From assembly GCF_000014785.1 (NCBI RefSeq), contig NC_008340.1, positions 3,060,001 to 3,092,000 on the forward strand: a stretch of 32,000 nucleotides of DNA, given 5' to 3'. Source of the stretch: Alkalilimnicola ehrlichii MLHE-1 (GTDB lineage Bacteria > Pseudomonadota > Gammaproteobacteria > Nitrococcales > Halorhodospiraceae). The notes beneath the pieces are model-generated. The model searched no databases and was not told the DNA's origin. It saw only the letters and a program-made list of their open reading frames with translations. Position numbers and translations under genes: made by a program. Positions 3,606 to 25,333 of the stretch are shown piece after piece. How positions within the stretch are numbered: position 1 is the stretch's first letter; each line of letters opens with the position of its first letter.

Positions 3606-5441
3606 TCACAACGTCCGCCCCTTGCTCTCAGAGGAGACCTCCTCGACAGCCGCCTGAATCTCTTCATCGCTGAGCGCGACCTGACTCTGCGCCAGGCGCA
3701 CCTCCTTTTCCTTGGCCACCAGCAAGATCTGCGCCGCCTCGATAAGCAGACGGGCAATATCATAGGCGTACCCCGCATCATTCATCAGCGAGGTGGCCTC
3801 GGCACCGCGCATGCGCCGCTCCCTGATCGCCTCCTCCAGCCGGGCGCTGAACCCCCGGTAGAAGCGCTCCACGCTGACCTTGTAGGCATCAAGCGCGAGT
3901 ACGGTGGAGGCTCCGGGTTCCTCCTGGCGCAGTTGCTCAATCTCGCGCAACAGCCCTGCAATCAGCAGCCGGATCTCGTCGTAGCGCTCGCGGATGGCGC
4001 GGTTACGGGACAGGCCAAGCCGCGACAGGTTCTTGTGCAAGTGCTTCATGTCCTTCACCGCCAGCACAATATTCTGGCTGGCGTGGCGCAGTTCGTAGAG
4101 CTGCTCGGTGGCGGCGGCCGGAGTATCACCACTGGTCCCGCTCTCGCTGATGAATTCCACGATGGCGCTCTGCAGGCTCTTGATCCGCTGCTCGTAATCG
4201 TCATCGATATCCAGCGGCATGATGCGCTGGGTACGGGCCACAGCGTCGCTCAACGACTGCTCGGAGCGAACCACCGTGCGCCGCAGACTGAGCCCGTGGG
4301 TGATCAGCGAAAAGGCATTCTCGTACAGGTGCCAGACCTCCTTGCGCACTGCGGCCACGGTGACCTCCGGCACCTTCAGCGCGTCCTTGTGCAGGAACTG
4401 CGGCCTGACCGTGCGCTTGGAGACGAATGTCACATAGTGCTCCAGCAGGCTGGCAAACTGCTTGGTGAAGGGCGCGAAGATCATCACGCCCAACAAATTG
4501 AACAGGGTATGGAACAGCGCCAGGCGAAGCAGAAAGTCGTCCTCGGCAAAGCCCAGCAGGTTGCCGCCGAAATCCACACCCAAACGGATCCAGTCCATGA
4601 ACGCCACCGCCACCACGGCGGTCACGATATTAAAGACCACGTGCGCCACCGCCAGCCGCTTGCCGCCCAGGTGCGCGGTCATGCCACCCAGGGCCGTGGT
4701 CACCGCCGTCCCCAGGTTGGCGCCGATGGCCAGGGCCAGGCCGTTCTCGTAGGTGACCTGCCCGGCCGCCAGGGCGGTGATCACCACCAGCAAGGTGGCG
4801 TGGCTGGACTGCATGATCACCGTGATGAGCATGCCGATGCCGATGTAGACCAGCAGCCCGGCCATCCCCTCCATGGAGTAGGCGGCCAGGTCGAAGGTCT
4901 CCTGGAAGGCGTCGAAGCCCTCCTTCATGTAGTGGATACCCAGGAAGAGAAAGCCGATGCCCAGCAGGATATTGCCCGCCCCCTTGGCCATCTTACCGCG
5001 CTGGAACATCAGCACGATGGCGAAGACCAGTAACGGCATGGCGTAGGCGGAGATGTTCACCCGCAGGCCCAGGCCGGCGATCAGCCAGGCACCCGTGGTG
5101 GTCCCCAGGTTGGTCCCCAGCACCACGCCGATGCCCGCGGCCAGCGGGATCATCTGGGCGCTGACGAAGGAGATGGTGACCAGCGAGACCAGGGTGCTGG
5201 ACTGCATCAGCGTGGTGCTGGCGATGCCGAAGCCCACGCTCTTCCACAACCGATTGGTGGAAGCCTCGAGCAGGGTCTCCAGGGTGCCGCCGGTAAAGGT
5301 GCGGAAACCCTGCTCCAGCGACATCATGCCGAACAGGAAGATGGCCACGCCGGCGGCGATCTCGGTGAAATCTCCACTCTGCCAGAAGCCCCAGGCCAGG
5401 ATGCCCAGGACAATGGCGAGCACCACCGCGCGGAGACTCAT
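3606..5441 (-). CDS. Na+/phosphate cotransporter family protein with C-terminal PhoU-like domain (NptA/YjbB-like)
   Basis: 611 aa. The N-terminal half is polytopic, with the duplicated Na/Pi-cotransporter motif (GGTLETLLEASTNRLW...MQSSTLVSL, then GANLGTAVTTAL...MQSSHATLLVV). The C-terminal ~220 aa is soluble and helical, of PhoU type. Confidence 0.88.
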   Translation of the reverse strand: MSLRAVVLAIVLGILAWGFWQSGDFTEIAAGVAIFLFGMMSLEQGFRTFTGGTLETLLEASTNRLWKSVGFGIASTTLMQSSTLVSLVTISFVSAQMIPLAAGIGVVLGTNLGTTTGAWLIAGLGLRVNISAYAMPLLVFAIVLMFQRGKMAKGAGNILLGIGFLFLGIHYMKEGFDAFQETFDLAAYSMEGMAGLLVYIGIGMLITVIMQSSHATLLVVITALAAGQVTYENGLALAIGANLGTAVTTALGGMTAHLGGKRLAVAHVVFNIVTAVVAVAFMDWIRLGVDFGGNLLGFAEDDFLLRLALFHTLFNLLGVMIFAPFTKQFASLLEHYVTFVSKRTVRPQFLHKDALKVPEVTVAAVRKEVWHLYENAFSLITHGLSLRRTVVRSEQSLSDAVARTQRIMPLDIDDDYEQRIKSLQSAIVEFISESGTSGDTPAAATEQLYELRHASQNIVLAVKDMKHLHKNLSRLGLSRNRAIRERYDEIRLLIAGLLREIEQLRQEEPGASTVLALDAYKVSVERFYRGFSARLEEAIRERRMRGAEATSLMNDAGYAYDIARLLIEAAQILLVAKEKEVRLAQSQVALSDEEIQAAVEEVSSESKGRTL

Positions 5442-5577
5442 AACCGCGCCATGCCCCCCGGCTGAAGCCCGACTCTGCCCAACTGGGCCTGCATCGGCAG
5501 CATTCCACTCCCCGATTAGGTATTCGTTACCCCTATCATGCGCCCGGTCACACAGGTAGGGTCAAGTGCCCGGGGGG

Positions 5578-8500: not shown

Positions 8501-8730
8501 TACTCGTGCAACAGCGCGTCCACCCCGAACTCCCCCTTTTGCGCGCTGATCATGCCCATGACCAGCGATCGGGCGTGCGCCTGGATGCGCCGGTTGGCGG
8601 TTTCGCCCAACGCGGCCCGCTCCAGCATGACCGATGTGACCTTGGCCTCGTCGGCGCGGTAGGCCTCGGCGAGGACGGCCCGCTCCGGGTGCAGCAAGGC
8701 GTCGGGTTGCGGGTGAACAAAATGGCTCAT
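5578..8730 (-). CDS. putA: Bifunctional proline dehydrogenase / L-glutamate-gamma-semialdehyde (P5C) dehydrogenase
   Basis: I place the start at ATG 8730 (MSHFVHPQPDALL..., 1050 aa). The 64 codons upstream in the ORF track are R/P/A-rich and overlap the divergent gene's promoter region. A PRODH barrel is followed by an ALDH domain (FTGGTDTARRI..., IAETGGLNAMVVDSSALPEQ, AGQRCSALR) and the typical tail AAAGGNASL. There is no N-terminal ribbon-helix-helix extension, so it is not the long E. coli-type regulatory form. Confidence 0.93.
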   Translation of the reverse strand: MSHFVHPQPDALLHPERAVLAEAYRADEAKVTSVMLERAALGETANRRIQAHARSLVMGMISAQKGEFGVDALLHEYDLSSEEGIVLMCLAEALLRVPDRYTADKLIHDKLTASHWETHLGRDRPLFVNAATWGLLLTERIIDTDDRDRWLGGVLHHMVARAGEPVIRTAVRRAMGLLADTFVLGRDIDEALKRAHPNERKGYRYSYDMLGEAARTDADAQAYFEAYRNAIHRVGKAVDPQARIRDRAGVSVKLSALDPRYEPGQEARVMGTVLPRLLQLCELARDYNIALCVDAEESWRLDLSLDVIEAVLAEPGLADWEGFGLAIQAYQKRCYALVGWLEAQAARQNRALMVRLVKGAYWDTEIKETQVQGLRDYPVFTRKAATDVAYLACARRLLSECPHLYPQFATHNAHTVAAVMELAGRQPYEFQRLHGMGEALYEQLLGRAGGPDIPCRIYAPVGSHEELLAYLVRRLLENGANSSFVNRIHEGDVEALVADPASSLRARESLRHPRIPLPRDLYGEQRLNSIGLDFSDRHEMVWLAEAMEAASEHAWRAAPLIDGQVKAGAGEAVHCPADRERQVGRVVWSEHADVEHALEAAVAGRETWANTRAETRARALEQIAELYEAHGAELMALCTREAGKGLKDGIAEVREAADFCRYYAHQARRLFGQATVLPGPTGERNELRLHPRGTFLCISPWNFPLAIFTGQVTAALAAGNTVVAKPAEQASLIAHQAVALMHRAGIPETALHLLPGDGGEIGPHLVADPRISGVAFTGGTDTARRIQQGLAQREGPIVPLIAETGGLNAMVVDSSALPEQVVVDIIRSAFHSAGQRCSALRLLCVQEDIADDLLAMLKGAMDALTVGDPHWLATDVGPVIDPAARDGLLAHHERMVSAGRLLHQAPLRPECERGSFVAPALYRLDRIDQLGREHFGPLLHWVTWRAGELDALVDRINGLGYGLTLGVHSRVDETAAAVVNRARVGNAYVNRDMVGAVVGSQPFGGEGLSGTGFKAGGPHYLLRFAAERVVTVNTAAAGGNASLFAMGEDD

Positions 8731-8750
8731 TGGTAAAGTCTGGACCACGG

Positions 8751-8779
8751 GCCTGTGGCTGCAAGGGAACCCGTATAAT
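8751..8779 (+). promoter_or_regulatory. Candidate sigma70 promoter for the Trx-membrane gene (perfect -10, poor -35)
   Basis: A perfect TATAAT sits at 8774-8779, 32 nt upstream of ATG 8811, which stands out in this GC-rich context. The hexamer 17 nt upstream (GCCTGT, 8751-8756) is a poor -35. Confidence 0.25.
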
Positions 8780-8810
8780 CGGACAGACCACCGTGCAGGA
8801 GGGGACCCCC

Positions 8811-10124
8811 ATGGAGCAGACGTCCGCCGCCCGCCAGCCGTCGGAACAGGCAGCCCGGCTGAGCGTCTGGGTGCTACTGCTGCTCGGGGCCCTCCTGCTG
8901 CAGCAACCCGTACCGAGTGCACAGGCCGCTGAGAACGGCCCCGCCGGGGCGGACACCATCACCCTGCATTTCTTCTGGACCCAGCAGTGCCCCCGCTGCA
9001 TTGCCGCCCTGCCCGCCGTCCGCCGGCTGGCCGAGGACTACGACTGGCTGGAGGTGCGCAGCTACAACCTCAGCGCGGAGCCACGGCACGGCCAGGTCTA
9101 CCGGGAACTGGCCAGCGCCCTGGGCGAGGAGGCCCGGGCGGTGCCGGGGTTTGTCTTCTGCGACGCCATGCTGGTGGGCTTCGATGACCACGGCCGGCAG
9201 GAGGCGCGATTGCGCCAGTTGCTGGAGACCTGTCATGCGCAGATCCAGGCCGGCGGGCCGCCGGTGCTGGAGCGTGCCCTTTGGACCGAGGCGGAACCCA
9301 TGCGGTTGCCGCTGCTCGGCGAGGTGCGGCCGGATGACCTCTCGCTGCCGGCACTGACCCTCCTGCTGGCCGGGTTCGACGCCTTCAACCCCTGCGCCTT
9401 CTTCGTGCTGCTGTTCCTGCTCAGCGTGGTGGTGCACAGCCGCAGCCGCGGCCGTATCCTGCTGATTGGCGGCATCTTCGTGACCATCTCCGGGGTCATT
9501 TACTTCACCTTCATGACCGCCTGGCTGAACGCCTTCCTGGTCTTTGGCGAGATGCCGCTGGTGACCCGGCTGGCCGGGCTGGTGGCGGTGACCATGGCGC
9601 TGATCAACATCAAGGACTACTTCTGGTTCAAGCGCGGCGTGTCACTGAGCATTCCGGACTCGGCCCGGCCGGGGCTGTTCCGGCGTATGCGCGCACTCAC
9701 CACCGCCGACAGTCTGCCCTGGGTGCTGGGGGCCACGCTGATCCTCGCCGTGGTGGTGAACCTCTACGAGATCCTCTGCACCATGGGCTTCCCCATGATC
9801 TACACCCGCATCCTCACCGCCCACGACCCGGGCGCGGTGGGATACTACGGCTACCTGCTGGCCTACAACGTGATCTACGTGCTTCCCATGCTCATCATCG
9901 TGGCGCTGTTCGCCTTCACCCTGGGCAATCGCAAGCTGCAGGAAGACGAGGGGCGGCTGCTGAAACTGCTCTCGGGGATGATGATGCTGGGTCTGGGACT
10001 GATGCTGCTGCTGCGTCCGGACCTGCTGGCCAACCCCCTGTTCGCCGTCGGCGTCATCTTCCTGGCCCTGCTGGCCACCGGGCTGGTCCGCCGTCTGTCC
10101 CCGCGAGGGTCAGGCGGTCGATGA
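8811..10124 (+). CDS. Periplasmic thioredoxin-fold domain fused to a CcdA/DsbD-like polytopic membrane domain (putative thiol:disulfide oxidoreductase)
   Basis: Start is taken at ATG 8811, with GGAGGGG 7 nt upstream. The N-terminus is a signal peptide (VWVLLLLGALLLQQPVPSAQA/AE). The Trx-like module has CPRC (codons at 8988-8999) in FFWTQQCPRCIAALP. About 6-7 TM helices follow. TM1 carries AGFDAFNPCAFF (compare B. subtilis CcdA GFLSFISPC). A later TM carries YEILCTMGFP (compare CcdA GWTPCTGP). Confidence 0.8.
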   Translation: MEQTSAARQPSEQAARLSVWVLLLLGALLLQQPVPSAQAAENGPAGADTITLHFFWTQQCPRCIAALPAVRRLAEDYDWLEVRSYNLSAEPRHGQVYRELASALGEEARAVPGFVFCDAMLVGFDDHGRQEARLRQLLETCHAQIQAGGPPVLERALWTEAEPMRLPLLGEVRPDDLSLPALTLLLAGFDAFNPCAFFVLLFLLSVVVHSRSRGRILLIGGIFVTISGVIYFTFMTAWLNAFLVFGEMPLVTRLAGLVAVTMALINIKDYFWFKRGVSLSIPDSARPGLFRRMRALTTADSLPWVLGATLILAVVVNLYEILCTMGFPMIYTRILTAHDPGAVGYYGYLLAYNVIYVLPMLIIVALFAFTLGNRKLQEDEGRLLKLLSGMMMLGLGLMLLLRPDLLANPLFAVGVIFLALLATGLVRRLSPRGSGGR

Positions 10125-10345: not shown

Positions 10346-11065
10346 ATGCAAACACCACGAGTTTTGTTATTTTCAGTGCTGTTTGTCCTTTTGCTGATGG
10401 GTTGCGGGAATGAACAATCGGCGGACGACGACGCGGCACCGCTCGCCTCCAATAGGCCCGCATTGGAGGCGAGCGCGGTTGCCGATCTGTTGGTGCAGAA
10501 CTTCCATGATCAGACCGCGATTTTCGAGGAGATTGGTGATCGCATCCTGGCCATTGACGGGCAAGCCGCCGCCGAAGAGGTAGGCCGGCTCCTCGAGGGA
10601 GCCTACACGGACCGGGCGATTGCCGGGATTGAGGACATGGTCCAGTGGGCGGAAGAGTACCTGGTACCTCTCGATGCGGCGGAGCGTGCGGTACTCGCCG
10701 AGGAACTGGATGCGATCTTCGCGGCGGATGGCCGCCTAAAGGAAGCCGGGATGAGATTGGATCGGGCCACAGAGCGCGTTGACGGGAGTATCAACGCGCT
10801 GTTCCTGGCCAACCCGGGGCAGGCGCAAACGGTGCTCAATGGCGTGATCGCCTTTGGGGAAAACCTGGAGGCCTTCATGAACGATGAGCGGTGGCTGGCT
10901 CTGGACCGTCTTCTGGCACCGGAGCCGGCTCCCGAGGACGCAGCCCGCGGGTCGGCCGGGCAGATCGGTTCGCCTACCTGGTGTGAACGGATGGCCAACA
11001 CGCCGCAGTCCCAATGGACGATGAACGACGCCTTTGCGTTCGCGAACCATTGCACGGGCGGTTGA
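10346..11065 (+). CDS. Hypothetical lipoprotein, acidic and all-helical, with a C-terminal Cys-X22-Cys module
   Basis: The lipobox LLLMGC|G follows a hydrophobic signal sequence. GGAGGG lies 8 nt upstream of the ATG. The C-terminus GSPTWCERMANTPQSQWTMNDAFAFANHC resembles, from memory, the short 'WC...W...HC' lipoprotein module known as DUF3012. The gene has more A/T-ending codons than its neighbours. Confidence 0.7.
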   Translation: MQTPRVLLFSVLFVLLLMGCGNEQSADDDAAPLASNRPALEASAVADLLVQNFHDQTAIFEEIGDRILAIDGQAAAEEVGRLLEGAYTDRAIAGIEDMVQWAEEYLVPLDAAERAVLAEELDAIFAADGRLKEAGMRLDRATERVDGSINALFLANPGQAQTVLNGVIAFGENLEAFMNDERWLALDRLLAPEPAPEDAARGSAGQIGSPTWCERMANTPQSQWTMNDAFAFANHCTGG

Positions 11066-11238: not shown

Positions 11239-11841
11239 ATGCACCGCAGAAACCCAACCCTCAAGGCAGCCGCGATCAGCGCTTTCATCGGCACGGCGGC
11301 CTTGACGTCACCCGCGCTCCACGCCGACCCCTTCGACGGCTTCTTCGCACCAGGGGACAACGGGGAGGCCTCCATCGCGCCGGTTGAGTCCTTATTCCTG
11401 ACGATCTACGAGGCTGCCGACGGCACCAGCGAGGGCTACGCCCGAGCTCTGACGGAAGCGATCAACTATCGCGTGGCCGCCATGCAGATCTTCGGCGACG
11501 ACTGGTTCAAGATTGACAGGGCACTGCGCAACGACTTCCTGGAGGTGTTCCCATCGGCCATACAGGACTACCTGGAATCGCTGGCGATCACCGATTTTCA
11601 CATTGAGTCCATCACGCCAACCGAGAGGGACACTGAGTTCGATGCCTCGGGCGAACTGGTGACGGACGCAACGCAAGACCCACTGCCGGTAACCTGGACC
11701 GTCAGGGTTCGCGGCCCGGAGGCCCGGATCATCCGGGCAGAAACCGCTGACGCAACCCTACTGCTACCTGAGCATGCACGTCAGCAGGTTGCCGACAATC
11801 CGACGGATCTTGAAGATATCATGGGTGGCCTGGGTTACTGA
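11239..11841 (+). CDS. Secreted hypothetical protein, possibly MlaC/Ttg2D-like lipid-binding protein
   Basis: AGGAGA lies 8 nt upstream of the ATG. The signal peptide is KAAAISAFIGTAALTSPALHA/DP. The central segment INYRVAAMQIFGDDWFKIDRALRNDFLEVFPSAIQDYLESL, followed by VTWTVRVRG..ARIIRAETADATLL, loosely follows the MlaC layout. The functional assignment is weak. Confidence 0.6.
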   Translation: MHRRNPTLKAAAISAFIGTAALTSPALHADPFDGFFAPGDNGEASIAPVESLFLTIYEAADGTSEGYARALTEAINYRVAAMQIFGDDWFKIDRALRNDFLEVFPSAIQDYLESLAITDFHIESITPTERDTEFDASGELVTDATQDPLPVTWTVRVRGPEARIIRAETADATLLLPEHARQQVADNPTDLEDIMGGLGY

Positions 11842-13234: not shown

Positions 13235-14074
13235 TCAGCTCGCGGAAGTGGGACGCGCCGGCACCAAGAGCACGAGCTGGTGGCTATTACGGCAGACCGC
13301 CTCGGCGGTGCTCCCCAGCAGGAGTTCAGTTAACGGGTTGTGGCCGCGCCGCCCGAGCACCACCAAGTCCGCCTGCTGTTCCCTGGCCACCTGGCTGATC
13401 ACCTGGCTGGGCTTGCCACGCCCTACCAATACCGTCTGGAAGGTGTCCGCGCCTGCTTGATCGAGAAGGCCCCGGATATGCTGCTCGATCCGTACCCGTT
13501 CGCCATCCTCATCCTTGCGATCATCCCACCGGCCGACGGAGACCACGACCCCCCGACCACAATGGGGCAGCAGCTTGAGAAAGGCCGCCTCGGCGCCGGA
13601 GGCCGCCTCGGAGCCATCGGTGGCCAGTAGCGGCCGGCAGATACCGCCCGAAGGCAGGGACGCCTCGCCATTGATCGGCACCAGCAACAGAGGCCGGTCG
13701 GCCAGACGCGCAAGGTTCAGCACCGTATTGCCAAGGAGCAGTTCGTGGACAAAACCGTGCCCCTGGCTGCCGGCCAGGATGGTGCCCGCCTGGCAGGCCT
13801 CGGCGGCGGCGATCAGCTCCTGGGCCACGGCGCCGACCCGGATCGTCCAGTCCACGTCCAGCCCGGTGGCCTGTTTCAGTGCCTTCGCCGCCTCGGCCAG
13901 CTTTTCCTCGTAATAGGCCCGATGACCCAGCTCCGGGGCCTGGGTATACCCCTCGGCCATCACGTAGGCCAGGGTCACGCGCCGGCAGCCCAGCGCCGGC
14001 AGGCGGGCCAGTTGGGCCTCCAGTTGCGACCAGGCCGGTGAGAAGTCGATGGCGGCCAGTATATGCTTCAGCAT
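13235..14074 (-). CDS. Universal stress protein, tandem UspA-domain type
   Basis: 279 aa with two Usp modules. The first runs ILAAIDFS...ILAGSQGHGFVHELLLGNTVLNLARLADRPLLLVP. The second runs LLATDGS...DLVVLGRRGHNPLTELLLGSTAEAVCRNSHQLVLLVP. GGAGAAAGG precedes the ATG. It lies 30 nt downstream of the CC-motif ORF on the same strand, so it may be the last gene of the ars transcript. Confidence 0.85.
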   Translation of the reverse strand: MLKHILAAIDFSPAWSQLEAQLARLPALGCRRVTLAYVMAEGYTQAPELGHRAYYEEKLAEAAKALKQATGLDVDWTIRVGAVAQELIAAAEACQAGTILAGSQGHGFVHELLLGNTVLNLARLADRPLLLVPINGEASLPSGGICRPLLATDGSEAASGAEAAFLKLLPHCGRGVVVSVGRWDDRKDEDGERVRIEQHIRGLLDQAGADTFQTVLVGRGKPSQVISQVAREQQADLVVLGRRGHNPLTELLLGSTAEAVCRNSHQLVLLVPARPTSAS

Positions 14075-14104: not shown

Positions 14105-14425
14105 TCATTGCCCTTCGGTTTTCGTGTGCCCCGCGGGGCGCCAGGGGCTGACGGCGCCCTCCACCACCAGGCGTTTCCAGCGCCAGAACCCTTCCACATC
14201 CACCCGGTAGGGGCCTTCGGAGAGCGCCCGGGCCAGGTAGACGGTGACGCCCTCCAGCGACAGGGCCTGGTAGTCCTCGCGGGCCTCCGGCACCCGGACC
14301 TCGGCCCGGGGCACGGCTGCGTGGCCGCCGCAGCAGCCATGTTGGGGGGCGGCACGCACAGTCAGTACGCCCCCCTGGGCCAGCACCCATGCCCGCGCCG
14401 CCGGGGTCAGGATGACCGGGGTCAT
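14105..14425 (-). CDS. Uncharacterised 106-aa protein with vicinal-cysteine HGCCGG motif, translationally coupled to acr3
   Basis: Its ATG (14425-14423) overlaps the acr3 stop codon in an ATGA junction (14422-14425). The CC codons are at 14330-14335. The N-terminal layout (ILTPAARAWV..GGVLTVR....GCCGG) is reminiscent of IscA/HesB-type scaffolds, but the C-terminal CxC is absent. From memory it resembles small proteins annotated 'CC/Se motif family (seleno)protein'; this is unverified. Confidence 0.7.
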   Translation of the reverse strand: MTPVILTPAARAWVLAQGGVLTVRAAPQHGCCGGHAAVPRAEVRVPEAREDYQALSLEGVTVYLARALSEGPYRVDVEGFWRWKRLVVEGAVSPWRPAGHTKTEGQ

Positions 14426-15537
14426 GCCTTGCCCGAGGCGGGGGCCAGCCCCGGCTGCGTCTCTTCCGGGAACCAGTGCTTGGTTTTATTGGCGATGCGG
14501 ACCAGCGCCAGCATCAGCGGTACCTCCACCAGCACGCCCACCACGGTGGCCAGCGCCGCCCCCGATTGCAGGCCGAACAGGGCGATGGCCGCGGCCACGG
14601 CCAGCTCGAAGAAGTTGCTGGCGCCAATCATGGCCCCGGGTGCCGCCACCGAGTGCTGCACCTTCCACGCCTTCGCCCAACGATAGGCAATGAAGAAGAT
14701 CAGGAAGGTCTGGATGATCAGCGGGATCGCGATCAACAGAATGTGCAGCGGGTTGTTCAGGATCACCTCGCCTTGGAAGGCGAACAGCAGGATCAGGGTG
14801 AGGATCAGCCCGATGGGCGTCACCGGCGCCAGGCGCTTCATGAAGACGTTGTCGAACCACTCCACGCCCTTGTGTTTGATGAGCATCACGCGGGTCAGGT
14901 AGCCGGCAGCCAGCGGGATGACGATGTACAGGAACACCGACAACGCCACGGTATCCCACGGCACCTGGATGTCAGAGATGCCCAGCAGCAGCACCACGAT
15001 GGGGGCAAAGGCGAACAGCATGATCAGGTCGTTCACCGAGACCTGCACCAGGGTGTAGGCGGCATCGCCCCGGGTGAGGTAGCTCCAGACGAAGACCATG
15101 GCGGTGCAGGGGGCCGCGCCCAGCAGGATGGCCCCGGCCAGGTACTCCCGGGCCAGGTCCTCCGGGATGAAGGGCTGGAAGACCACCATCAGGAAGAACC
15201 AGGCGATGGCGAACATGGTGAAAGGCTTGATCAGCCAGTTCACAGTGGTGGTGATCACCAGCCCCTTGGGCTGCCGGCGCACACCGAGGATGGCACCGAA
15301 GTCGATCTGCACCATCATCGGGTAGATCATGGCCCAGATCAGGATGGCGACGGGGATGGAGACCTGGGCGTACTCGAAGCGTGCAAGGGTATCCGGCACC
15401 ACCGGCAGAAACTGCCCCAGCAGCACGCCGGCGATCATGCCCAGCGCCACCCAAAGGGTGAGGTAGCGCTCGAACAAGCCCATACCCTCCTTGGTGGAGG
15501 GGGTGTCATTGGCGGCGGTCGGCTGCGAATCACTCAT
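14422..15537 (-). CDS. acr3: Arsenite efflux transporter, ACR3 family
   Basis: 371 aa. GLFERYLTLWVALGMIAGVLLG...GAAPCTAMVFVWS... is the canonical ACR3 sequence, including the conserved Cys in GAAPC. The ATG overlaps the arsA stop (ATGA at 15534-15537). Confidence 0.94.
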   Translation of the reverse strand: MSDSQPTAANDTPSTKEGMGLFERYLTLWVALGMIAGVLLGQFLPVVPDTLARFEYAQVSIPVAILIWAMIYPMMVQIDFGAILGVRRQPKGLVITTTVNWLIKPFTMFAIAWFFLMVVFQPFIPEDLAREYLAGAILLGAAPCTAMVFVWSYLTRGDAAYTLVQVSVNDLIMLFAFAPIVVLLLGISDIQVPWDTVALSVFLYIVIPLAAGYLTRVMLIKHKGVEWFDNVFMKRLAPVTPIGLILTLILLFAFQGEVILNNPLHILLIAIPLIIQTFLIFFIAYRWAKAWKVQHSVAAPGAMIGASNFFELAVAAAIALFGLQSGAALATVVGVLVEVPLMLALVRIANKTKHWFPEETQPGLAPASGKA

Positions 15538-17249
15538 GAGTAGTCTTCGCTCCAGGGTTCAATAATCAGTCGGCTGTGATGTTCGCTCACGATCTCGCGC
15601 AGCCAGCGGGCCTCCTGCGCCTGGCGGGCGCGCAGCACCGGGTCGGTCACCGCCAGCGGGGTCAGCGACTGGTTGACAATCCAGGCCGCCGGCTCGATCT
15701 CCGCCCGGCGCAGGTCCGCCTGCAGAGCTGCCGCCTCGTGCACGGGCGTGGCCTCCGGCAGGGTGCAGATCAACATGTGGGTGTAGTGGGGGTCACGCAG
15801 CCGGGGCAGCAACTGCTCCACCTCCGGCGCCACCTCCTGGCTCTGCCGGCCCAGCTCGCGGTGATAGGCCTGGGCGGCATCCAGCAGCAGGATGGTGTGG
15901 CCGGTGGGGGCGGTGTCCAGCACCACGATCTCGTCCTCGGCCCGGGCCACGGTACGGGCGAAGGCCTGGAAGACGGCGATCTCCTCGGTACAGGGCGAAC
16001 GCAGGTCCTCCTCCAGCAGCTTGCGCCCCTCCTCGTCCATGTCGGCGCCGGCGGTGGCCATGACGTGCTCGCGGTAGCGCTCGGTCTCGGCCTTGGGGTC
16101 CACCCGGCCGACCGTCAGCCCGGTGGGCAGCTCGCCGCCCACGGCAGCGGCCACGTGGGCCGCCGGGTCGGTGGTGGTCAGGTGAACACTGTGCCCGCGG
16201 GAGGCGAGCGCCACGGCGATCCGGGCCGCCAGGGTAGTCTTGCCCACCCCGCCCTTGCCCAGGGTCATGACCGCACCGCGGCCGTCGCGCTCCAGGCTGT
16301 CAATGAGTTGCTCGAAGGACTCGCCCTCGGGTGCGTCCTCCGCCGGCTGTTCGGGAATGTCGGGGGCCTGCTCGCCCAGCAGGATGCGCAGGCCGTCCAG
16401 GCCCATGGGCGCGTGCGCCCGCAGTGGCCGCTCGCTGCGCGGCAGCTCCGCCAGCCCGGCGGGCATGGCCTCGAGGGCGCGCTGGCCCCGCGCCTCCAGG
16501 GCCCGGGCCACCGGGTCGTCGGCGTCGGTGGCGCGAAAGACGCCGTTGACCACCAGATGCTGGTTTTTCACACCGAGGTCGCGCAGTTCTTCGCTGGTGC
16601 GGGCGGCCTCGTCCAGCGCGGCCCCCTCCGGCCGGCTGACCAGCACCAGGGTGGTGCGGTCGGCCTCCGCCAGCGCCTCCACCGCGCCGGCATAGACGTC
16701 CTTCTGGGCGGACAGCCCTTCCAGCGGGCCCAGGCAGGAGGTGCCGGAGGTGTTGGTCTCGATGTACCCGCTCCAAGCGCTGGGCAGGGAGAGCAGCCGC
16801 AGGGTGTGACCGGTGGGGGCGGTGTCGAACACCAGGTGGTCGTAGCCCTCGGCGGCGCGGGGGTCGCCCAGCAGGCCGGCGAAGGCGTCGAAGGCGGCGA
16901 TCTCGACGGTGCAGGCACCAGAAAGCTGCTCTTCCATGCTCCGCACGATGGCGTCCGGGAGCTGACCACGGTAAGGACCGACGACGCGCTCGCGGTACTC
17001 CTCGGCAGCCTTTTCCGGATCGATGTTGAGTGCATGGAGGTTGTCCACGCCATTGACCGGGCGCGGAGTACCGGTCAGGTCGGTCTCCAGCACCTCGTCG
17101 ATGTTGGAGGCCGGGTCGGTGGAGACCAGCAGGACACGCTTGCCCCGCTCCGCTAGGGCCAGCGCCGTGGCGCAGGCGAGGGAGGTCTTACCGACACCGC
17201 CCTTTCCGGTGAAAAAGAGATTGCGCGTGGCGTTTTCCAGAAATTGCAT
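15534..17249 (-). CDS. arsA: Arsenite-stimulated efflux ATPase ArsA (two-domain)
   Basis: 571 aa. The deviant Walker A is duplicated: GKGGVGKTS at the N-terminus and GKGGVGKTT in the second half. The signal-transduction motif DTAPTGHT occurs twice. Three metalloid-site cysteines are in the expected contexts (SGACTVEIAAFDAF, SGTSCLGPLEG, RSPCTEEIAVFQAF). Confidence 0.96.
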   Translation of the reverse strand: MQFLENATRNLFFTGKGGVGKTSLACATALALAERGKRVLLVSTDPASNIDEVLETDLTGTPRPVNGVDNLHALNIDPEKAAEEYRERVVGPYRGQLPDAIVRSMEEQLSGACTVEIAAFDAFAGLLGDPRAAEGYDHLVFDTAPTGHTLRLLSLPSAWSGYIETNTSGTSCLGPLEGLSAQKDVYAGAVEALAEADRTTLVLVSRPEGAALDEAARTSEELRDLGVKNQHLVVNGVFRATDADDPVARALEARGQRALEAMPAGLAELPRSERPLRAHAPMGLDGLRILLGEQAPDIPEQPAEDAPEGESFEQLIDSLERDGRGAVMTLGKGGVGKTTLAARIAVALASRGHSVHLTTTDPAAHVAAAVGGELPTGLTVGRVDPKAETERYREHVMATAGADMDEEGRKLLEEDLRSPCTEEIAVFQAFARTVARAEDEIVVLDTAPTGHTILLLDAAQAYHRELGRQSQEVAPEVEQLLPRLRDPHYTHMLICTLPEATPVHEAAALQADLRRAEIEPAAWIVNQSLTPLAVTDPVLRARQAQEARWLREIVSEHHSRLIIEPWSEDYS

Positions 17250-17357: not shown

Positions 17358-17735
17358 TCAACAGCAGCCGGAGCCCGGTGACTGATCGTTGCCACCACAG
17401 CCGCCAGCGGACTCGGTGTCAGCCGATTCGGCCTTGATGCCAACCCAGGCGGCCAGCGCCTGGCGATCCGGGTAGCTGCCCTGGCTCATCACCTCGCCGT
17501 CCACCAGGAAGACCGGCAGGGCGTCCTCGCCCCGGCGCTGGAGGATGTCCTTAACGGTCGCGTTCTCGACGAAGGCGCCGGGTTGTTGCGAGAGGTTGTA
17601 GCGGATGACGGACACCCCCTGTTTTTTCACCCAGTCCAGGTCGGCGGCCAGCTTCGAGAGCTTGGGATCGACACTCGGGCCACAGACACCCGTGGAACAG
17701 CACTGCGGCGGGTCGAAAACAGTCAGTTCGGTCAT
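17358..17735 (-). CDS. arsD: Arsenic metallochaperone / weak trans-acting repressor ArsD
   Basis: 125 aa. MTELTVFDPPQCCSTGVCGPSVD carries the Cys12-Cys13-Cys18 As(III) site. The C-terminus carries further Cys (GGCGG...GSGCC). AGAGGTG precedes the ATG. Confidence 0.93.
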   Translation of the reverse strand: MTELTVFDPPQCCSTGVCGPSVDPKLSKLAADLDWVKKQGVSVIRYNLSQQPGAFVENATVKDILQRRGEDALPVFLVDGEVMSQGSYPDRQALAAWVGIKAESADTESAGGCGGNDQSPGSGCC

Positions 17736-17809: not shown

Positions 17810-18232
17810 TCACTTCAGCGCGGCCACCAGATCAGCAACACGGCGCTTGATGTCATCCCGCACCGTCCGGAACTCCGCCATGATCTCATCCTCGGTGCCC
17901 CGGGCCTTCGCCGGATCGGGCAATGGCCAGTGGTGCTTCTCGATACCCACGGGCACCACCGGGCAGTGCTCGTCGGCATGCCCGCAGACGGTCACCAGCA
18001 CGTCGGCCCGGGCCAGCATCTCGTCGGTCAGGCGCGTGGAGGCCTGCTCGGCGATATCCACGCCGTCTTCGGCCATGACCGCGATGGCGCGCGGATTCTT
18101 GCCGTGGGCCTCGATGCCGGCGGACAGCACCTCCAGGTCGTCGTCTGCCATCGCGCGGGCATAGCCCTCGGCCATTTGCGAACGACAGGAGTTGCCGGTA
18201 CAGAGAAACAGCAGGGTCTTACGCTCGGGCAT
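17810..18232 (-). CDS. arsC: Arsenate reductase, LMW-PTPase fold, thioredoxin-coupled type
   Basis: 140 aa. LFLCTGNSCRSQMAEGY is the CX5R P-loop. VCGHADEHCP supplies the Cys82/Cys89-equivalent pair of the pI258-type ArsC. GAGG precedes the ATG. Confidence 0.92.
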   Translation of the reverse strand: MPERKTLLFLCTGNSCRSQMAEGYARAMADDDLEVLSAGIEAHGKNPRAIAVMAEDGVDIAEQASTRLTDEMLARADVLVTVCGHADEHCPVVPVGIEKHHWPLPDPAKARGTEDEIMAEFRTVRDDIKRRVADLVAALK

Positions 18233-18250: not shown

Positions 18251-18595
18251 TCATGAAAGCGATGGCCGGTTGGGCATCCCGCCGAGACGCTGTTGCGCCG
18301 CCTTCCAAGGCACGCCGGTGCCCTCGCCGACGGCCTCGATAACCCGACGCACCCAGTCCGGCAGGCCATCCGCCAACCGATAATGGACCCACTGTCCCCG
18401 CCGCTCATCGGTCACCAGCCCGGCATCGCGCAATTGCGCCAGATGGCGCGAGATCTTGGGCTGGGAGACCTCCAGCGCATGGGTCAGCTCACAGACGCAC
18501 AACCGGCCCTCCGCGCGCAGTAGCAGCACGCTGCGCAGCCGGGTGGAATCCGACAGGAGGCGGAACAGTTTTTCAGGGGCTATGCTCATGGGCAT
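18251..18595 (-). CDS. arsR: ArsR/SmtB-family As(III)-responsive repressor
   Basis: Only the C-terminal ~112-114 aa of the 307-aa track ORF is ArsR-like: (MP)MSIAPEKLFRLLSDSTRLRSVLLLRAEGRLCVCELTHALEVSQPKISRHLAQLRDAGLV. It includes the CVC metalloid-binding motif and the wHTH. The start is ambiguous, with in-frame ATGs at 18589, 18595, 18607 and 18613. The remainder of the track ORF is antisense to the flavin reductase gene. Confidence 0.88.
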   Translation of the reverse strand: MPMSIAPEKLFRLLSDSTRLRSVLLLRAEGRLCVCELTHALEVSQPKISRHLAQLRDAGLVTDERRGQWVHYRLADGLPDWVRRVIEAVGEGTGVPWKAAQQRLGGMPNRPSLS

Positions 18596-18609
18596 GAATA
18601 TACGCATCT

Positions 18610-18621
18610 CCATATATCTGG
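18610..18621. promoter_or_regulatory. Candidate ArsR operator (imperfect palindrome) in the arsR / flavin-reductase divergent region
   Basis: CCATATATCTGG matches its own reverse complement at 10 of 12 positions. It is an AT-rich core in a GC-rich region immediately upstream of the arsR start codons. ArsR operators are AT-rich dyads overlapping the promoter. The assignment rests on position and symmetry only. Confidence 0.3.
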
Positions 18622-18718
18622 TCAAGCGGATGGCACCCCCTTCATGGGGCGCTTCACCATCCAGGCCACGATGCCAAAATACCCTGGTGAGCTTGACCCT
18701 GCCAGTAACGGAGCCCCT

Positions 18719-19390
18719 ATGAAAACACTGATCTTTGTCGGCACGTCCCGTCAGAGCACCCCACCCAGGCCGCCCCGGCTGGGTCTGCGGGTCGCCAGGG
18801 CCTGCCTGGCCTACTTCAATGAATGGCTTCCGGACCATCAGGTAGAGCTGGTCGACCCGCTGGACCTGACATTCGGTGCCGTGTTCAAGCCGCACTTCGC
18901 CTATGCGAGCCAGCAGGCCCCGGATCAGCTCCGCGCCCTCGCGGAACAGATCGAGGCGGCCGACAGCTATGTCATGGTCAGTCCGGAATACAATCACTCC
19001 ATGAGCCCGGTACTCGCCCACCTGCTGAACCATTTCGGGAGTTCGCTCTTCTCCTACAAACCCAGCGCGATCGTCACCTACTCCGCCGGACAATGGGGCG
19101 GGGCCCGGGCCGCGGTGGCGATGCGGACATTTCTCTCCGAGTTGGGCTGTCTCCCGGTCTCCGCAATGATCCACATCCCCAAGGCGCAGACGGTGCTGGC
19201 CGAGGACGGCTCATTTCTAGAAGGGGCCGACGACGAGGAATGGACGGGCTACATGGGCAGAACGCTGCAACAACTGAACTGGTGGGCGGCCGCCGCGCGG
19301 GCGCACCGGCAGCAGGCTGACCCGTTCGACCGGGCTCAAGCGTTCCAGCGCGACCCATCGCAACGGAACGCGCCGAAACCGCCGGAGTGA
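18719..19390 (+). CDS. NAD(P)H-dependent FMN reductase family protein (flavodoxin-like fold; not canonical ArsH)
   Basis: Start is taken at ATG 18719 (GGAG 5 nt upstream), giving 223 aa. MKTLIFVGTSR...ADSYVMVSPEYNHSMSPVLAHLLNH... matches the FMN_red family signature. It is divergently transcribed from arsR. Confidence 0.85.
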   Translation: MKTLIFVGTSRQSTPPRPPRLGLRVARACLAYFNEWLPDHQVELVDPLDLTFGAVFKPHFAYASQQAPDQLRALAEQIEAADSYVMVSPEYNHSMSPVLAHLLNHFGSSLFSYKPSAIVTYSAGQWGGARAAVAMRTFLSELGCLPVSAMIHIPKAQTVLAEDGSFLEGADDEEWTGYMGRTLQQLNWWAAAARAHRQQADPFDRAQAFQRDPSQRNAPKPPE

Positions 19391-24478: not shown

Positions 24479-25333
24479 ATGACTGAAAAGGTATTCGCCT
24501 GTGTGGACGGCTCGCGCTCGTCCGAGTCCGTCTGTGACCACGCCGCCTGGGCCTGCCAGCGCCTGGGCGCCCCGCTGACCCTGCTGCATGTCATCCGCAA
24601 TCCCCACGGGGAACGCGAGCCCGACTACAGCGGCAACCTGAGCCTGGGCAACCGGGAAGAACTGCTCCAGGAGTTGGTGGAGTTGGAGGAGAAGCGCGGC
24701 AAGCTGGCCCGGGAGCAGGGCAAGGCGGTGCTGGCCGACGCCATCGCGCGGGTCGAGGCGGCCGGGGTGGAAAACCCGGGCCGTCTGCTGCGCAACGGGG
24801 ACATCACCGAGGCGTTGGCCGCTTTGGAGGAGGACATGCGCCTGCTGGTGCTGGGCAAGCAGGGCAAGGATGGCGACGTGGTCACCCGGCATATCGGCAG
24901 CCACCTGGAGAACATCATCCGCACCCTGCACAAGCCCATGCTGGTGGTGCCGCTGCAATTCCGCACCCCGGAGCGCTTCCTGATCGCCTATGACGGCAGC
25001 CCCACGGCCGACAAGGTGGTGGACCGACTGGCCCGAAGCAGCCTGCTGGACGGGCTGGAGGCCCATATCCTGATGGTGGGTGCGGAGACCGACGCCAACC
25101 GCGAGAAACTGGAGGCGCCCCGGGCCCGGCTGCAGAAAGAGGGCTTCCAGGTGACCACGGCGGTGAAATCGGGCGAGGTGAACGAGGTGGTCTGTGACTA
25201 TCGCGAGGCCAACGACATCCACCTAATGGCGATGGGTGCTTACGGCCACTCGCGGCTGCGCCAGTTCTTCGTGGGCAGCACCACCACCCACATGATCATG
25301 CGCTCGCCGATCCCGCTGTTGATACTGCGCTGA
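24479..25333 (+). CDS. Universal stress protein, tandem UspA-domain type
   Basis: 284 aa with two Usp modules: VFACVDGS...LLVLGKQGKDGDVVTRHIGSHLENIIRTLHKPMLVVP, and FLIAYDGS...HLMAMGAYGHSRLRQFFVGSTTTHMIMRSPIPLLILR. It starts 37 nt downstream of SulP and is probably co-transcribed with it. Confidence 0.88.
   Translation: MTEKVFACVDGSRSSESVCDHAAWACQRLGAPLTLLHVIRNPHGEREPDYSGNLSLGNREELLQELVELEEKRGKLAREQGKAVLADAIARVEAAGVENPGRLLRNGDITEALAALEEDMRLLVLGKQGKDGDVVTRHIGSHLENIIRTLHKPMLVVPLQFRTPERFLIAYDGSPTADKVVDRLARSSLLDGLEAHILMVGAETDANREKLEAPRARLQKEGFQVTTAVKSGEVNEVVCDYREANDIHLMAMGAYGHSRLRQFFVGSTTTHMIMRSPIPLLILR

What the first reader, a model, noticed from the sequence alone, without database searches (positions are those of the whole stretch)
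14105..14425. Uncharacterised vicinal-cysteine (HGCCGG) protein translationally coupled to ACR3 inside the ars operon
A 106-aa ORF starts within the acr3 stop codon (ATGA at 14422-14425). That is the same coupling used at the arsA/acr3 junction, so it looks like a genuine operon member rather than a chance ORF. Its only cysteines are an adjacent pair (codons at 14330-14335) in the context AAPQHGCCGGHAAVP. The fold signature before the pair (ILTPAARAWV..GGVLTVR) recalls IscA/HesB scaffolds, but the C-terminal Cys ligands are missing. Vicinal cysteines are the As(III) ligands of ArsD, which in this same operon has C12-C13-C18. The protein does not look like ArsH, and its size and composition fit none of the other accessory ars products I can recall (ArsI, ArsJ, ArsN, ArsO, ArsP, ArsT). 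Hypothesis: it is a previously uncharacterised As(III)/trivalent-organoarsenical-binding chaperone or thiol-redox partner dedicated to ACR3. ACR3, unlike ArsB, has no well-defined partner apart from ArsA in some systems. From memory, similar proteins are labelled 'CC/Se motif family (seleno)protein', with the first Cys sometimes a selenocysteine. If correct, that would argue for redox or metalloid chemistry.
Basis: partly seen in the sequence, partly recalled or inferred. Interest (0 to 1): 0.72.

Follow-up and report, generated by a model that had tools for sequence, protein, structure and literature searches.

The report
Acr3-linked vicinal-cysteine HesB-fold protein
A small, real but uncharacterised protein with two adjacent cysteines is encoded directly after the arsenite efflux pump gene acr3 here and in almost every related genome examined, which makes it a strong candidate for a new arsenic-resistance accessory protein.

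Summary
The 106-aa ORF at 14105-14425(-) is real. It is Mlg_2708 of Alkalilimnicola ehrlichii MLHE-1, starts in an ATGA overlap with the acr3 stop, and its only cysteines are C31-C32. A confident AlphaFold model (pLDDT 84) has the HesB/IscA fold. The GCCGG motif forms a beta-hairpin tip where IscA has its first cluster Cys, and the C-terminal CxC ligands are absent.

The new result is genomic. Of 75 informative loci of the HGCCGG clade, 74 have acr3 upstream on the same strand (67 directly adjacent). This holds across more than 25 otherwise different operon layouts, and the Acr3 and CC distance matrices correlate (r=0.76). Distant clostridial family members are not ars-linked, and one carries Cys-Sec in place of Cys-Cys. 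The syntenic gene in Thioalkalivibrio jannaschii is induced by As(III) in published data.

Function is untested. The most likely role is a cytosolic trivalent-metalloid-binding partner or chaperone of Acr3. A thiol-redox role is the main rival. The family is already named, but its link to acr3 appears unreported. An 84%-identical Acr3 without the gene shows it is an accessory, not an obligate subunit.

The parts
14105..14425 (-). Gene for the 106-aa CC/Se-motif family protein (Mlg_2708 of A. ehrlichii MLHE-1). HesB/IscA-like fold, cytosolic, no signal peptide.
   Evidence: ORF. NF041239 at 83.4 bits against a cut-off of 40. 100% identical NCBI protein. AF2 pLDDT 84.2. Foldseek top 9 hits are all IscA/SufA/HesB fold. 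dN/dS 0.24-0.34.
14330..14335 (-). Codons of Cys31-Cys32 (tgc tgc), the vicinal pair. They sit in the G30-C-C-G-G34 loop at the tip of the beta2-beta3 hairpin.
   Evidence: Sequence. Invariant in A1, A3 and A4. Present in most full-length representatives of an unbiased HMM search. C31 aligns to IscA Cys35. Sec replaces the second Cys in a paralogue.
14422..14425 (-). ATGA start/stop overlap between acr3 and the CC gene (translational coupling).
   Evidence: In related loci the acr3-CC junction overlaps in about 19 of 67 adjacent cases and is under 100 nt in nearly all (gaps estimated from tblastn segment ends).
14422..15537 (-). acr3, the ACR3-family arsenite efflux permease (contains the GAAPCTAMV motif).
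   Evidence: TIGR00832 at 408 bits against a cut-off of 283. PF01758.
15534..17249 (-). arsA, the arsenical pump-driving ATPase. Its stop overlaps the acr3 start (ATGA).
   Evidence: TIGR04291 at 787 bits against a cut-off of 650. Coordinates.
17358..17735 (-). arsD, the metallochaperone, with C12-C13-C18.
   Evidence: NF033727 at 128.7 bits and PF06953. Sequence.
17810..18232 (-). arsC, thioredoxin-coupled (LMW-PTP type) arsenate reductase.
   Evidence: TIGR02691 at 183.5 bits against a cut-off of 174.3.
18251..18595 (-). arsR, an ArsR/SmtB metalloregulator with a CVC motif. The start is uncertain (in-frame ATG at 18613, 18607, 18595, 18589).
   Evidence: NF007528 and NF033788, PF01022. Sequence.
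18597..18625 (-). Sigma-70-like promoter candidate for the ars operon (TTGACC-17-TATATT, 10 of 12 matches).
   Evidence: This is a consensus match only. No terminator-like site was found on the minus strand between 19000 and 12800.
13235..14074 (-). Tandem universal-stress-protein (UspA-domain) gene, 30 nt downstream of the CC gene. Probably the last gene of the operon.
   Evidence: PF00582, two domains. A homologue follows the CC gene within 250 nt in 32 of 84 related loci. uspA is induced by As(III) in Tv. jannaschii (PMC6620896).
18644..19390 (+). Divergently transcribed FMN_red-family NAD(P)H-dependent reductase. It is not ArsH. It recurs in the related acr3-CC clusters.
   Evidence: PF03358. 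No TIGR02690 hit. Only 26% local identity to a true ArsH. Homologues at 59-70% identity lie next to acr3 or CC in about 15 loci.

Best explanation
The ORF encodes a small cytosolic single-domain protein with the HesB/IscA (A-type carrier) fold. It keeps only the first cluster-ligand position of that fold and doubles it into a vicinal Cys-Cys pair on an exposed glycine-rich hairpin tip (H-G-C-C-G-G).

It belongs to a clade of the CC/Se-motif family that travels as a two-gene module with the ACR3 arsenite permease. In this window it is co-transcribed with the As(III)-inducible ars operon, translationally coupled to acr3, and made in the cytoplasm, where Acr3 picks up its substrate.

The most likely mechanism is as follows. 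The vicinal dithiol binds a trivalent metalloid, either As(III)/Sb(III) or a trivalent organoarsenical, which needs only two thiolates. It probably does so as a homodimer, as A-type carriers do, which would give up to four thiolates. The protein would then buffer the metalloid or hand it to the essential Cys-containing translocation site of Acr3, raising efflux efficiency at low free As(III). That would make it a functional analogue of ArsD for ArsA.

Shown: the gene is real; family membership; the fold; conservation of the CC pair; near-obligate acr3 linkage; As(III) induction of the syntenic gene in a relative.
Inferred: metalloid binding, dimerisation, contact with Acr3, and any effect on resistance.
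For: - Family and fold: NF041239 at 83 bits against a cut-off of 40. AF2 pLDDT 84, pTM 0.73, with GCCGG forming the beta2-beta3 loop. The nine best PDB fold matches are all IscA/SufA/HesB-type. hhalign against E. coli IscA gives probability 78%, E 1.7e-5, with C31 on IscA C35.
- Linkage: 67 of 84 loci have acr3 directly upstream on the same strand. Seven more have acr3 upstream with one gene or a gap between. Nine are uninformative. One contig starts too late to show acr3. A Halomonas 1.83-Mb replicon shows the same arrangement.
- Module behaviour: the acr3>CC core persists through more than 25 different surrounding architectures, and the Acr3 and CC pairwise-identity matrices correlate (r=0.76, Mantel p=0.001).
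- Direction of dependence: CC almost never occurs without acr3 in this clade, while 647 of 648 plasmid records with an Acr3 homologue have no CC. This is the pattern expected of an accessory that depends on the pump.
- Expression: in Tv. jannaschii the gene between ACR3 and uspA (Hp1, F816_RS0102070) is induced by As(III), log2FC 2.75, p=3e-10 at 5 mM (PMC6620896).
- Chemistry: in 60 of 81 clade members the pair provides the only cysteines. A paralogue has Cys-Sec at the same place.
- From established knowledge, not tested here: vicinal cysteines are arsenical ligands in ArsD (C12/C13), ArsI (C96/C97) and ArsP (C65/C66).
- Precedent: Halomonas GFAJ-1 Acr3-2 alone does not protect E. coli and needs a co-operonic cytosolic protein (PMC5930303).
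Against: - There is no biochemical, genetic or interaction evidence for this protein or any family member. Only one review lists the family, and it gives no function.
- Stable As(III) sites normally use three thiolates, and a monomer offers two.
- The wider family is not arsenic-specific. Clostridial members lie next to unrelated genes, so the CC/CU motif has a more general chemistry, possibly redox.
- An 84%-identical Acr3 (Halomonas pHAL1) has no CC gene or remnant, and most Acr3 pumps work without it.
- The invariance of the motif in the locus sets is partly circular, because the scans were seeded on GCCGG patterns.
- The identity of Tv. jannaschii Hp1 with this family rests on synteny, not on its sequence (one search did not retrieve it).
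Confidence: 0.45

Rival explanations
1. Thiol-redox partner. The vicinal Cys-Cys pair (Cys-Sec in relatives) cycles between dithiol and a strained vicinal disulfide or selenenylsulfide, as in the GCUG tail of mammalian thioredoxin reductase. The protein would keep the essential Acr3 cysteine or other thiols reduced under arsenite stress, or it would reduce As(V) or pentavalent organoarsenicals next to the pump.
For: A Sec form has U at the second Cys position. Sec is typical of redox catalysts (review PMC13188914). Distant members occur in non-arsenic contexts, including next to DsbD_TM, which suggests a general thiol chemistry. Several acr3-CC loci have no arsC within the fetched flank. GFAJ-1 shows As(V) resistance from an acr3 operon without an arsenate reductase (PMC5930303).
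Against: There is no thioredoxin-like fold and no CxxC motif. No reductase partner is conserved in the neighbourhood. arsC is present in this operon and in many of the related ones, so a reductase role would be redundant. Vicinal disulfides are rare and strained. There are no data.
Confidence: 0.25
2. Fe-S cluster protein. This would be a minimal A-type-carrier relative that binds a [2Fe-2S] or similar cluster across a dimer through four cysteines. It would protect or rebuild Fe-S proteins damaged by arsenite, and its co-expression with the pump would simply reflect arsenite being the inducing stress.
For: HesB/IscA fold with C31 at the IscA Cys35 position. UniRef labels relatives as HesB/YadR/YfhF-family or Fe-S cluster assembly proteins. 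From established knowledge, arsenite is known to damage Fe-S assembly.
Against: The two C-terminal ligands (CxC) that define A-type carriers are absent, and PF01521 is not matched. A general Fe-S repair role does not explain the strict position directly after acr3, the translational coupling, or the co-evolution with Acr3. No isc or suf genes are nearby.
Confidence: 0.12
3. Arsenite-sensing regulator. As(III) binding to the Cys pair would switch the protein's interaction with Acr3 or with the downstream tandem-Usp protein, gating pump activity or stress signalling instead of delivering substrate.
For: A tandem-Usp gene directly follows the CC gene in 32 of 84 loci and is co-induced. One contig has CC and Usp in a single ORF (L004). 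Cys-based arsenic-sensing domains that control ACR3 are described in plants (bioRxiv 10.1101/2025.04.13.648538, listed; not homologous).
Against: Usp is absent downstream in at least 36 loci that have enough DNA to show it. The L004 fusion is on a contig that also has frameshifted arsR and acr3, so it may be an assembly error. No regulatory domain is present.
Confidence: 0.1
4. Chance ORF or non-functional remnant in GC-rich DNA.
For: The window is GC-rich and full of long spurious ORFs.
Against: It matches a curated family model above cut-off. Homologues are spread over several gammaproteobacterial lineages (Ectothiorhodospiraceae, Thioalkalivibrio, Halomonadaceae and others) with conserved length, start and motif. 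dN/dS is 0.24-0.34. The structure prediction is confident. The syntenic gene is transcribed and induced.
Confidence: 0.02

Closest known systems
CC/Se motif family (seleno)protein (NCBIfam NF041239 'Moor_selen_rel'; Pfam PF28096 CC_Se_fam)
   Same: This protein is a member. It scores 83 bits against a cut-off of 40 over the whole 91-position model. It has the CC pair at the family position, and RefSeq already gives it this name.
   Different: The family has no assigned function, and the one review that lists it treats it as a predicted selenoprotein of unknown role. This protein has Cys-Cys, not Cys-Sec. It belongs to an H-G-C-C-G-G clade that, unlike the clostridial members, is tied to acr3.
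A-type Fe-S carriers IscA/SufA/ErpA (HesB fold, Pfam PF01521) and the Cys-less relative DsrR
   Same: The fold is the same: the nine best PDB matches, probability 0.82-1.0, TM about 0.4-0.5. Remote sequence similarity over the N-terminal 59 columns puts C31 on IscA Cys35. The size is also similar.
   Different: The C-terminal C-x-C ligands are missing. There is no PF01521 hit. A second Cys sits adjacent to the first. The genomic context is an arsenic efflux operon, not isc or suf.
ArsD, the As(III) metallochaperone of the ArsAB pump
   Same: Both are small cytosolic proteins encoded in ars operons beside the pump component they would serve, with a vicinal Cys pair as the candidate As(III) ligand. 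ArsD is present in this same operon with C12-C13-C18.
   Different: They are not homologous. ArsD has a thioredoxin-like fold (established knowledge), while this protein has a HesB fold. ArsD has a third ligand (C18) and partners with ArsA. The CC gene is linked to acr3 and occurs mostly without arsD or arsA.
Vicinal-cysteine arsenical sites of ArsI (C96-C97) and ArsP (C65-C66), and the Cys-Sec GCUG motif of mammalian thioredoxin reductase (from established knowledge)
   Same: Adjacent Cys-Cys or Cys-Sec in a glycine context, acting as a two-thiolate site for trivalent (organo)arsenicals or as a redox centre. The family has both CC and CU forms.
   Different: These proteins and folds are unrelated. 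The resemblance lies in the motif only and was not tested here.
HesB-like selenoprotein (TIGR01911)
   Same: A HesB-fold protein family that also has Sec and Cys forms (PMC1794560, PMC13188914).
   Different: It is a different curated family with a different motif (UxGP). The window protein did not match it at E<=0.1.

Membership tests
CC/Se motif family (NCBIfam NF041239) | Whole-protein score above the curated cut-off (40 bits) | tested here: met
   83.4 bits, E 9e-24, protein residues 6-91 on model positions 5-91 of 91.
CC/Se motif family (NCBIfam NF041239) | Adjacent Cys-Cys (or Cys-Sec) near residue 30, after the first long strand | tested here: met
   C31-C32. The same position holds a CC pair in most full-length representatives of the unbiased profile search. 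A Sec form, C-U, is seen in L095 and L096.
Pfam PF28096 CC_Se_fam | Match to the Pfam model | not testable with these tools
   The local Pfam copy lacks PF28096 (no hit). The precomputed annotation of the identical protein P0001 lists PF28096.
A-type Fe-S carrier (IscA/HesB, Pfam PF01521) | Match to PF01521 above the gathering score | tested here: not met
   No Pfam hit at E<=0.1. Only a remote hhalign similarity, probability 78%.
A-type Fe-S carrier (IscA/HesB, Pfam PF01521) | Three conserved cluster cysteines (C-x~63-C-x-C) | tested here: not met
   Only the first position is kept (C31 aligned to IscA C35). There is no Cys after residue 32.
A-type Fe-S carrier (IscA/HesB, Pfam PF01521) | HesB fold | tested here: met
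   Foldseek top 9 hits: 1x0g, 2d2a, 1r94, 1s98, 2apn, 1nwb, 2k4z, on a model with pLDDT 84.
ArsD metallochaperone (PF06953 / NF033727) | Sequence match to the ArsD models | tested here: not met
   No hit for the 106-aa protein, whereas the neighbouring true ArsD scores 158.8 and 128.7 bits.
ArsD metallochaperone (PF06953 / NF033727) | Three-cysteine As(III) site (C12, C13, C18) | tested here: not met
   Only two cysteines per chain.
ArsD metallochaperone (PF06953 / NF033727) | As(III) binding and transfer to the pump | not testable with these tools
   Needs biochemistry.
ArsH (TIGR02690) | Match to the ArsH equivalog model | tested here: not met
   No hit for the CC protein. The neighbouring FMN_red gene also fails it.
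Selenoprotein | In-frame UGA at the active-site position | tested here: not met
   The codons are tgc tgc. All 81 acr3-linked clade members read CC.
ars operon member | Same strand, no intervening terminator, coupled to neighbouring ars genes | tested here: met
   4-nt overlap with acr3. No terminator-like site on the minus strand, and a promoter-like site upstream of arsR.
ars operon member | Arsenic-dependent expression and resistance phenotype | not testable with these tools
   Indirect only. The syntenic Hp1 of Tv. jannaschii is induced by As(III) (PMC6620896). There is no phenotype for any member.

The most novel reading that the evidence does not exclude
The HGCCGG clade of the CC/Se family is the missing dedicated partner of ACR3-type arsenite permeases. 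It would be a HesB-fold, vicinal-dithiol metalloid chaperone (a new ars gene) that evolved from the Fe-S A-type-carrier scaffold. By extension, the whole CC/CU family, selenoproteins included, would be soft-metal(loid)-handling proteins rather than Fe-S proteins.
Probability: 0.35. Interest if true: 0.72.

Novelty: new variant of a known kind. Interest (0 to 1): 0.58.

Why it matters
ACR3 is the most widespread arsenite efflux permease, yet no dedicated cytosolic partner is known for it. ArsD serves ArsA.

- A protein that is tied almost exclusively to acr3, across haloalkaliphilic, hypersaline and marine bacteria, would add a new gene to the ars repertoire.
- It would give the first functional handle on a curated but function-less protein family that also includes selenoproteins.
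- It would show the Fe-S carrier fold re-used for metalloid handling.
- It is directly testable with standard tools: E. coli AW3110 complementation, metal binding and two-hybrid assays.
- In practice, the gene could improve the annotation of arsenic resistance in metagenomes and the engineering of arsenic efflux. It might also explain why some Acr3 pumps fail to work alone in heterologous hosts.

Tried and rejected
- Local Pfam scan of the ORF: no hit, because PF28096 is newer than the local copy.
- PDB sequence searches with the close (A1) and broad (A2) profiles: nothing meaningful. Only fold comparison showed the HesB relationship.
It was repeated with the 13-sequence A4. As a result the metagenome loci were seeded on HGCCGGxAx[VL], so motif invariance in that set is circular. 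I rely for conservation.
- Word-indexed homologue search with the broad profile: only 12 new proteins.
- Confirming by exact-sequence look-up that Tv. jannaschii Hp1 is a family member: many Thioalkalivibrio strains were found, but not ALM2. This stays an inference from synteny.
- 'ArsH-like' label for the FMN_red gene and its homologues: rejected.
- CC-Usp fusion in L004: considered as evidence for a functional link, then set aside because the same contig has frameshifted arsR and acr3.
- All-pairs dN/dS (median 0.54): not used because synonymous sites are saturated. Only the closer pairs are cited.
- Literature: no paper holds the terms Mlg_2707 to Mlg_2710, 'CC Se motif family', or HesB together with acr3.
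- Idea that the protein is an obligate Acr3 subunit: rejected because of pHAL1 and the 647 other plasmid records that carry an Acr3 but no CC gene.
- A dimer or Acr3 co-fold: could not be run, because the structure tool takes one chain only.
Full report
**Observation**

The window carries a minus-strand ars operon:

| Gene | Coordinates (minus strand) |
|---|---|
| arsR | about 18251-18595 |
| arsC, thioredoxin type | 17810-18232 |
| arsD | 17358-17735 |
| arsA | 15534-17249 |
| acr3 | 14422-15537 |
| 106-aa ORF under study | 14105-14425 |
| tandem-Usp gene | 13235-14074 |

- The ORF's ATG overlaps the acr3 TGA (ATGA at 14425-14422). The arsA/acr3 junction has the same 4-nt overlap.
- The protein has two cysteines only, C31 and C32 (tgc tgc, 14335-14330), in AAPQHGCCGGHAAVP.
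- ArsD in the same operon has C12, C13 and C18.
- A sigma-70-like promoter match lies just upstream of arsR, and no terminator-like site is found on the minus strand down to 12800.

**It is a real gene**

- The protein is 100% identical to an NCBI protein of Alkalilimnicola ehrlichii MLHE-1.
- In Ahn et al. 2019 (PMC6620896, Suppl. Table 3) the gene between ACR3 (Mlg_2709) and uspA (Mlg_2707) is listed as Mlg_2708, 'hypothetical protein'.
- Homologues at 36-78% identity share length, N-terminus and motif.
- dN/dS against the closer relatives is 0.24-0.34.

**Family**

- NCBIfam NF041239 'CC/Se motif family (seleno)protein' matches at 83.4 bits against a cut-off of 40, over the whole model.
- The precomputed Pfam assignment is PF28096 CC_Se_fam. 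The local Pfam copy lacks that model, which is why one search found nothing.
- The family is small. An exhaustive profile search of 1.84 billion representatives found 164 hits at E<=1e-3.
- In that search, which was not seeded on the motif, the CC pair near residue 30 is present in most full-length members, including very divergent ones. About 15 lack it.
- One paralogue (L095/L096) reads ...N-C-U-M..., with an in-frame TGA. Sec therefore replaces the second Cys.
- The only paper in the library that names the family is a 2026 review, which lists it as a predicted selenoprotein with no function.

**Fold**

- AlphaFold2 on a 37-sequence alignment gives mean pLDDT 84.2 and pTM 0.73.
- The model has a short strand, one helix and six more strands. 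G30-C31-C32-G33-G34 forms the loop between strands 2 and 3, and the tail after about residue 95 is disordered.
- The nine best Foldseek matches in the PDB are all HesB/IscA-type proteins: IscA 1x0g, 1r94 and 1s98; SufA 2d2a; HI1723; AQ_1857; DsrR. Probabilities are 0.82-1.0 and TM-scores about 0.4-0.5.
- A profile comparison of the family with E. coli IscA (sequence checked against PDB 1s98) gives probability 78%, E 1.7e-5 over 59 columns, and puts C31 on IscA Cys35.
- The C-terminal C-x-C ligands that define A-type carriers are absent, and PF01521 is not matched. The protein shares the fold but is not an A-type carrier.

**Genomic context, the main new result**

I fetched 21 loci from species-representative genomes and 63 from metagenomes, then mapped the window's ars proteins onto them.

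| Arrangement upstream of the CC gene | Loci (of 84) |
|---|---|
| acr3 directly upstream, same strand, under 200 nt (about 19 overlapping) | 67 |
| acr3 upstream with an FMN_red-family gene between | 5 |
| acr3 upstream with a 500-770 nt gap | 2 |
| Too little upstream DNA to judge | 9 |
| No acr3 on the contig (L073) | 1 |

- L073 begins inside the FMN_red gene that follows acr3 in sister loci.
- So 74 of 75 informative loci have acr3 upstream. A Halomonas 1.83-Mb replicon adds one more case.
- The hosts include Ectothiorhodospiraceae, Thioalkalivibrio, Spiribacter, Halofilum, Guyparkeria, Competibacteraceae, a Lysobacterales MAG and Halomonadaceae, plus soda-lake, hypersaline and TARA ocean contigs.
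- Around the constant acr3>CC pair there are more than 25 different architectures: arsRC upstream or not, arsDA present in only a few, arsC up- or downstream or convergent, the FMN_red gene before or after acr3, Usp present or absent.
- Acr3 is much more conserved than CC (median pairwise identity 0.80 against 0.41), and the two matrices correlate (r=0.76, Mantel p=0.001). The two genes move and evolve as a unit.
- At least 29 of 140 family representatives are 50% or more identical to a protein from an acr3-linked locus, and 45 more are 35-50% identical. This clade is therefore a large part of the family.

**Limits of the linkage**

- Distant clostridial members (about 20-28% identity) are not in arsenic contexts:
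  - In Alkaliphilus metalliredigens the gene lies near an HMA-domain P-type ATPase, an HMA protein and a truncated paralogue.
  - In Clostridium formicaceticum it follows lgt, with DsbD_TM nearby.
  - Others lie next to sugar, CstA or TetR/MFS genes.
- Conversely, 648 plasmid records carry an Acr3 homologue and only one has the CC gene.
- Halomonas sp. HAL1 pHAL1 has arsR-arsC-arsH-acr3 with an Acr3 84% identical to this one. A hairpin follows its stop, and there is no CC gene or remnant.
- In this clade the CC gene therefore depends on acr3, but Acr3 does not depend on it. That is the pattern of an optional accessory.

**Expression**

- In Thioalkalivibrio jannaschii ALM2 the gene in the same slot between ACR3 and uspA (Hp1, F816_RS0102070) is induced by As(III): log2FC 1.32 at 0.1 mM and 2.75 (p=3e-10) at 5 mM. 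ACR3 and uspA are induced with it (PMC6620896).
- The authors noted 'two hypothetical proteins' in the induced cluster and gave no function.
- I could not retrieve the Hp1 sequence. Many other Thioalkalivibrio strains carry the family member in that position, so the identification is by synteny.

**Mechanism**

Shown:
- The protein is a cytosolic HesB-fold protein.
- It has an exposed, conserved vicinal dithiol.
- It is co-transcribed with, and translationally coupled to, Acr3.

Inferred:
- The dithiol binds a trivalent metalloid. Two thiolates suffice for MAs(III) or PhAs(III). For As(III), a dimer, which is usual for this fold, would supply more.
- The protein buffers the metalloid or delivers it to Acr3.

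Supporting and limiting points:
- From established knowledge, vicinal cysteines serve as arsenical ligands in ArsD, ArsI and ArsP.
- A precedent that Acr3 pumps of this group can need a cytosolic helper comes from Halomonas GFAJ-1. There, acr3-2 alone did not protect E. coli AW3110 and required arsH1 or arsH2 (PMC5930303).
- The main rival is a thiol-redox role. It is favoured by the Cys-Sec relatives and by the non-arsenic contexts of distant members.
- An Fe-S role fits the fold but not the missing ligands or the strict acr3 coupling.
- A sensing or regulatory role with the downstream Usp is possible but not general.

**Novelty and verdict**

- The protein and its family are already named in RefSeq, NCBIfam and Pfam, so the sequence itself is not new.
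- As far as the searchable literature shows, two things are new: the near-obligate, co-evolving linkage of a large clade of this family to acr3, and the HesB-fold assignment with a doubled first-ligand cysteine.
- I class it as a new variant of a known kind: an ars operon with an uncharacterised, pump-coupled accessory protein.
Its interpretation is partly supported: all the computable predictions pass, and the biochemical role remains to be tested.

Noticed in passing
window 18644-19390 (+); homologues in L004, L062, L064-L069, L071-L073, L077, L078: The FMN_red-family reductase divergent from arsR is not ArsH: it has no TIGR02690 match and only 26% local identity to a true ArsH. Even so, homologues at 59-70% identity recur immediately before or after acr3 in about 15 related loci. 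This is a second non-canonical ars-cluster gene, which Ahn et al. 2019 call NQD.
   Followed up: partly
window 13235-14074 (-); second copy at 24479-25333 (+): A tandem-domain universal stress protein gene follows the CC gene 30 nt downstream here and within 250 nt in 32 of 84 related loci. Its Tv. jannaschii orthologue is the most strongly As(III)-induced gene of the cluster. A second tandem-Usp gene lies elsewhere in the window.
   Followed up: partly
L004 6001-7224 (Halofilum MAG): The CC domain and the tandem Usp are read as one 407-aa ORF. The same contig shows frameshifted arsR and acr3, so this may be an assembly error and not a real fusion.
   Followed up: partly
L095 5001-5610 and L096 4738-5347: Two family genes sit in tandem, a Cys-Cys form followed by a Cys-Sec form (in-frame TGA; motif N-C-U-M), between cstA and secE-nusG. 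No SECIS element was looked for.
   Followed up: partly
L022 1-5138 (Alkaliphilus metalliredigens): A second, apparently truncated or divergent CC_Se paralogue (GCCGG kept, C-terminal half unrelated) lies about 900 nt upstream of Amet_3264. A P-type ATPase with an HMA domain (E1-E2_ATPase) and a separate HMA protein lie about 4 kb upstream, a heavy-metal context for a distant family member.
   Followed up: no
L097 (Halomonas sp. HAL1 pHAL1) 3983-5494: An Acr3 84% identical to the window's is followed by a hairpin and 445 nt with no CC gene or remnant. The island also carries arsJ-gapdh and arsH.
   Followed up: yes
window 8730-10124 (+): A 464-aa predicted membrane protein has no Pfam or NCBIfam match. 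It has an N-terminal CPRC (thioredoxin-like CxxC) segment followed by several hydrophobic segments, one containing a Pro-Cys (NPCAFF). It may be a DsbD/CcdA-like thiol-disulfide transporter fusion.
   Followed up: no
window 10346-11065 (+) and 11239-11841 (+): Two small probable secreted or lipoprotein genes lie between the membrane protein and the thiolase gene. One has a C-terminal DUF3012 and the other has no family match.
   Followed up: no
PMC5930303 (Halomonas sp. GFAJ-1): The paper reports that acr3-2 alone does not confer As(III) resistance on E. coli AW3110 unless it is combined with arsH1 or arsH2. Whether GFAJ-1 also has a CC gene after its acr3 genes was not checked.
   Followed up: no
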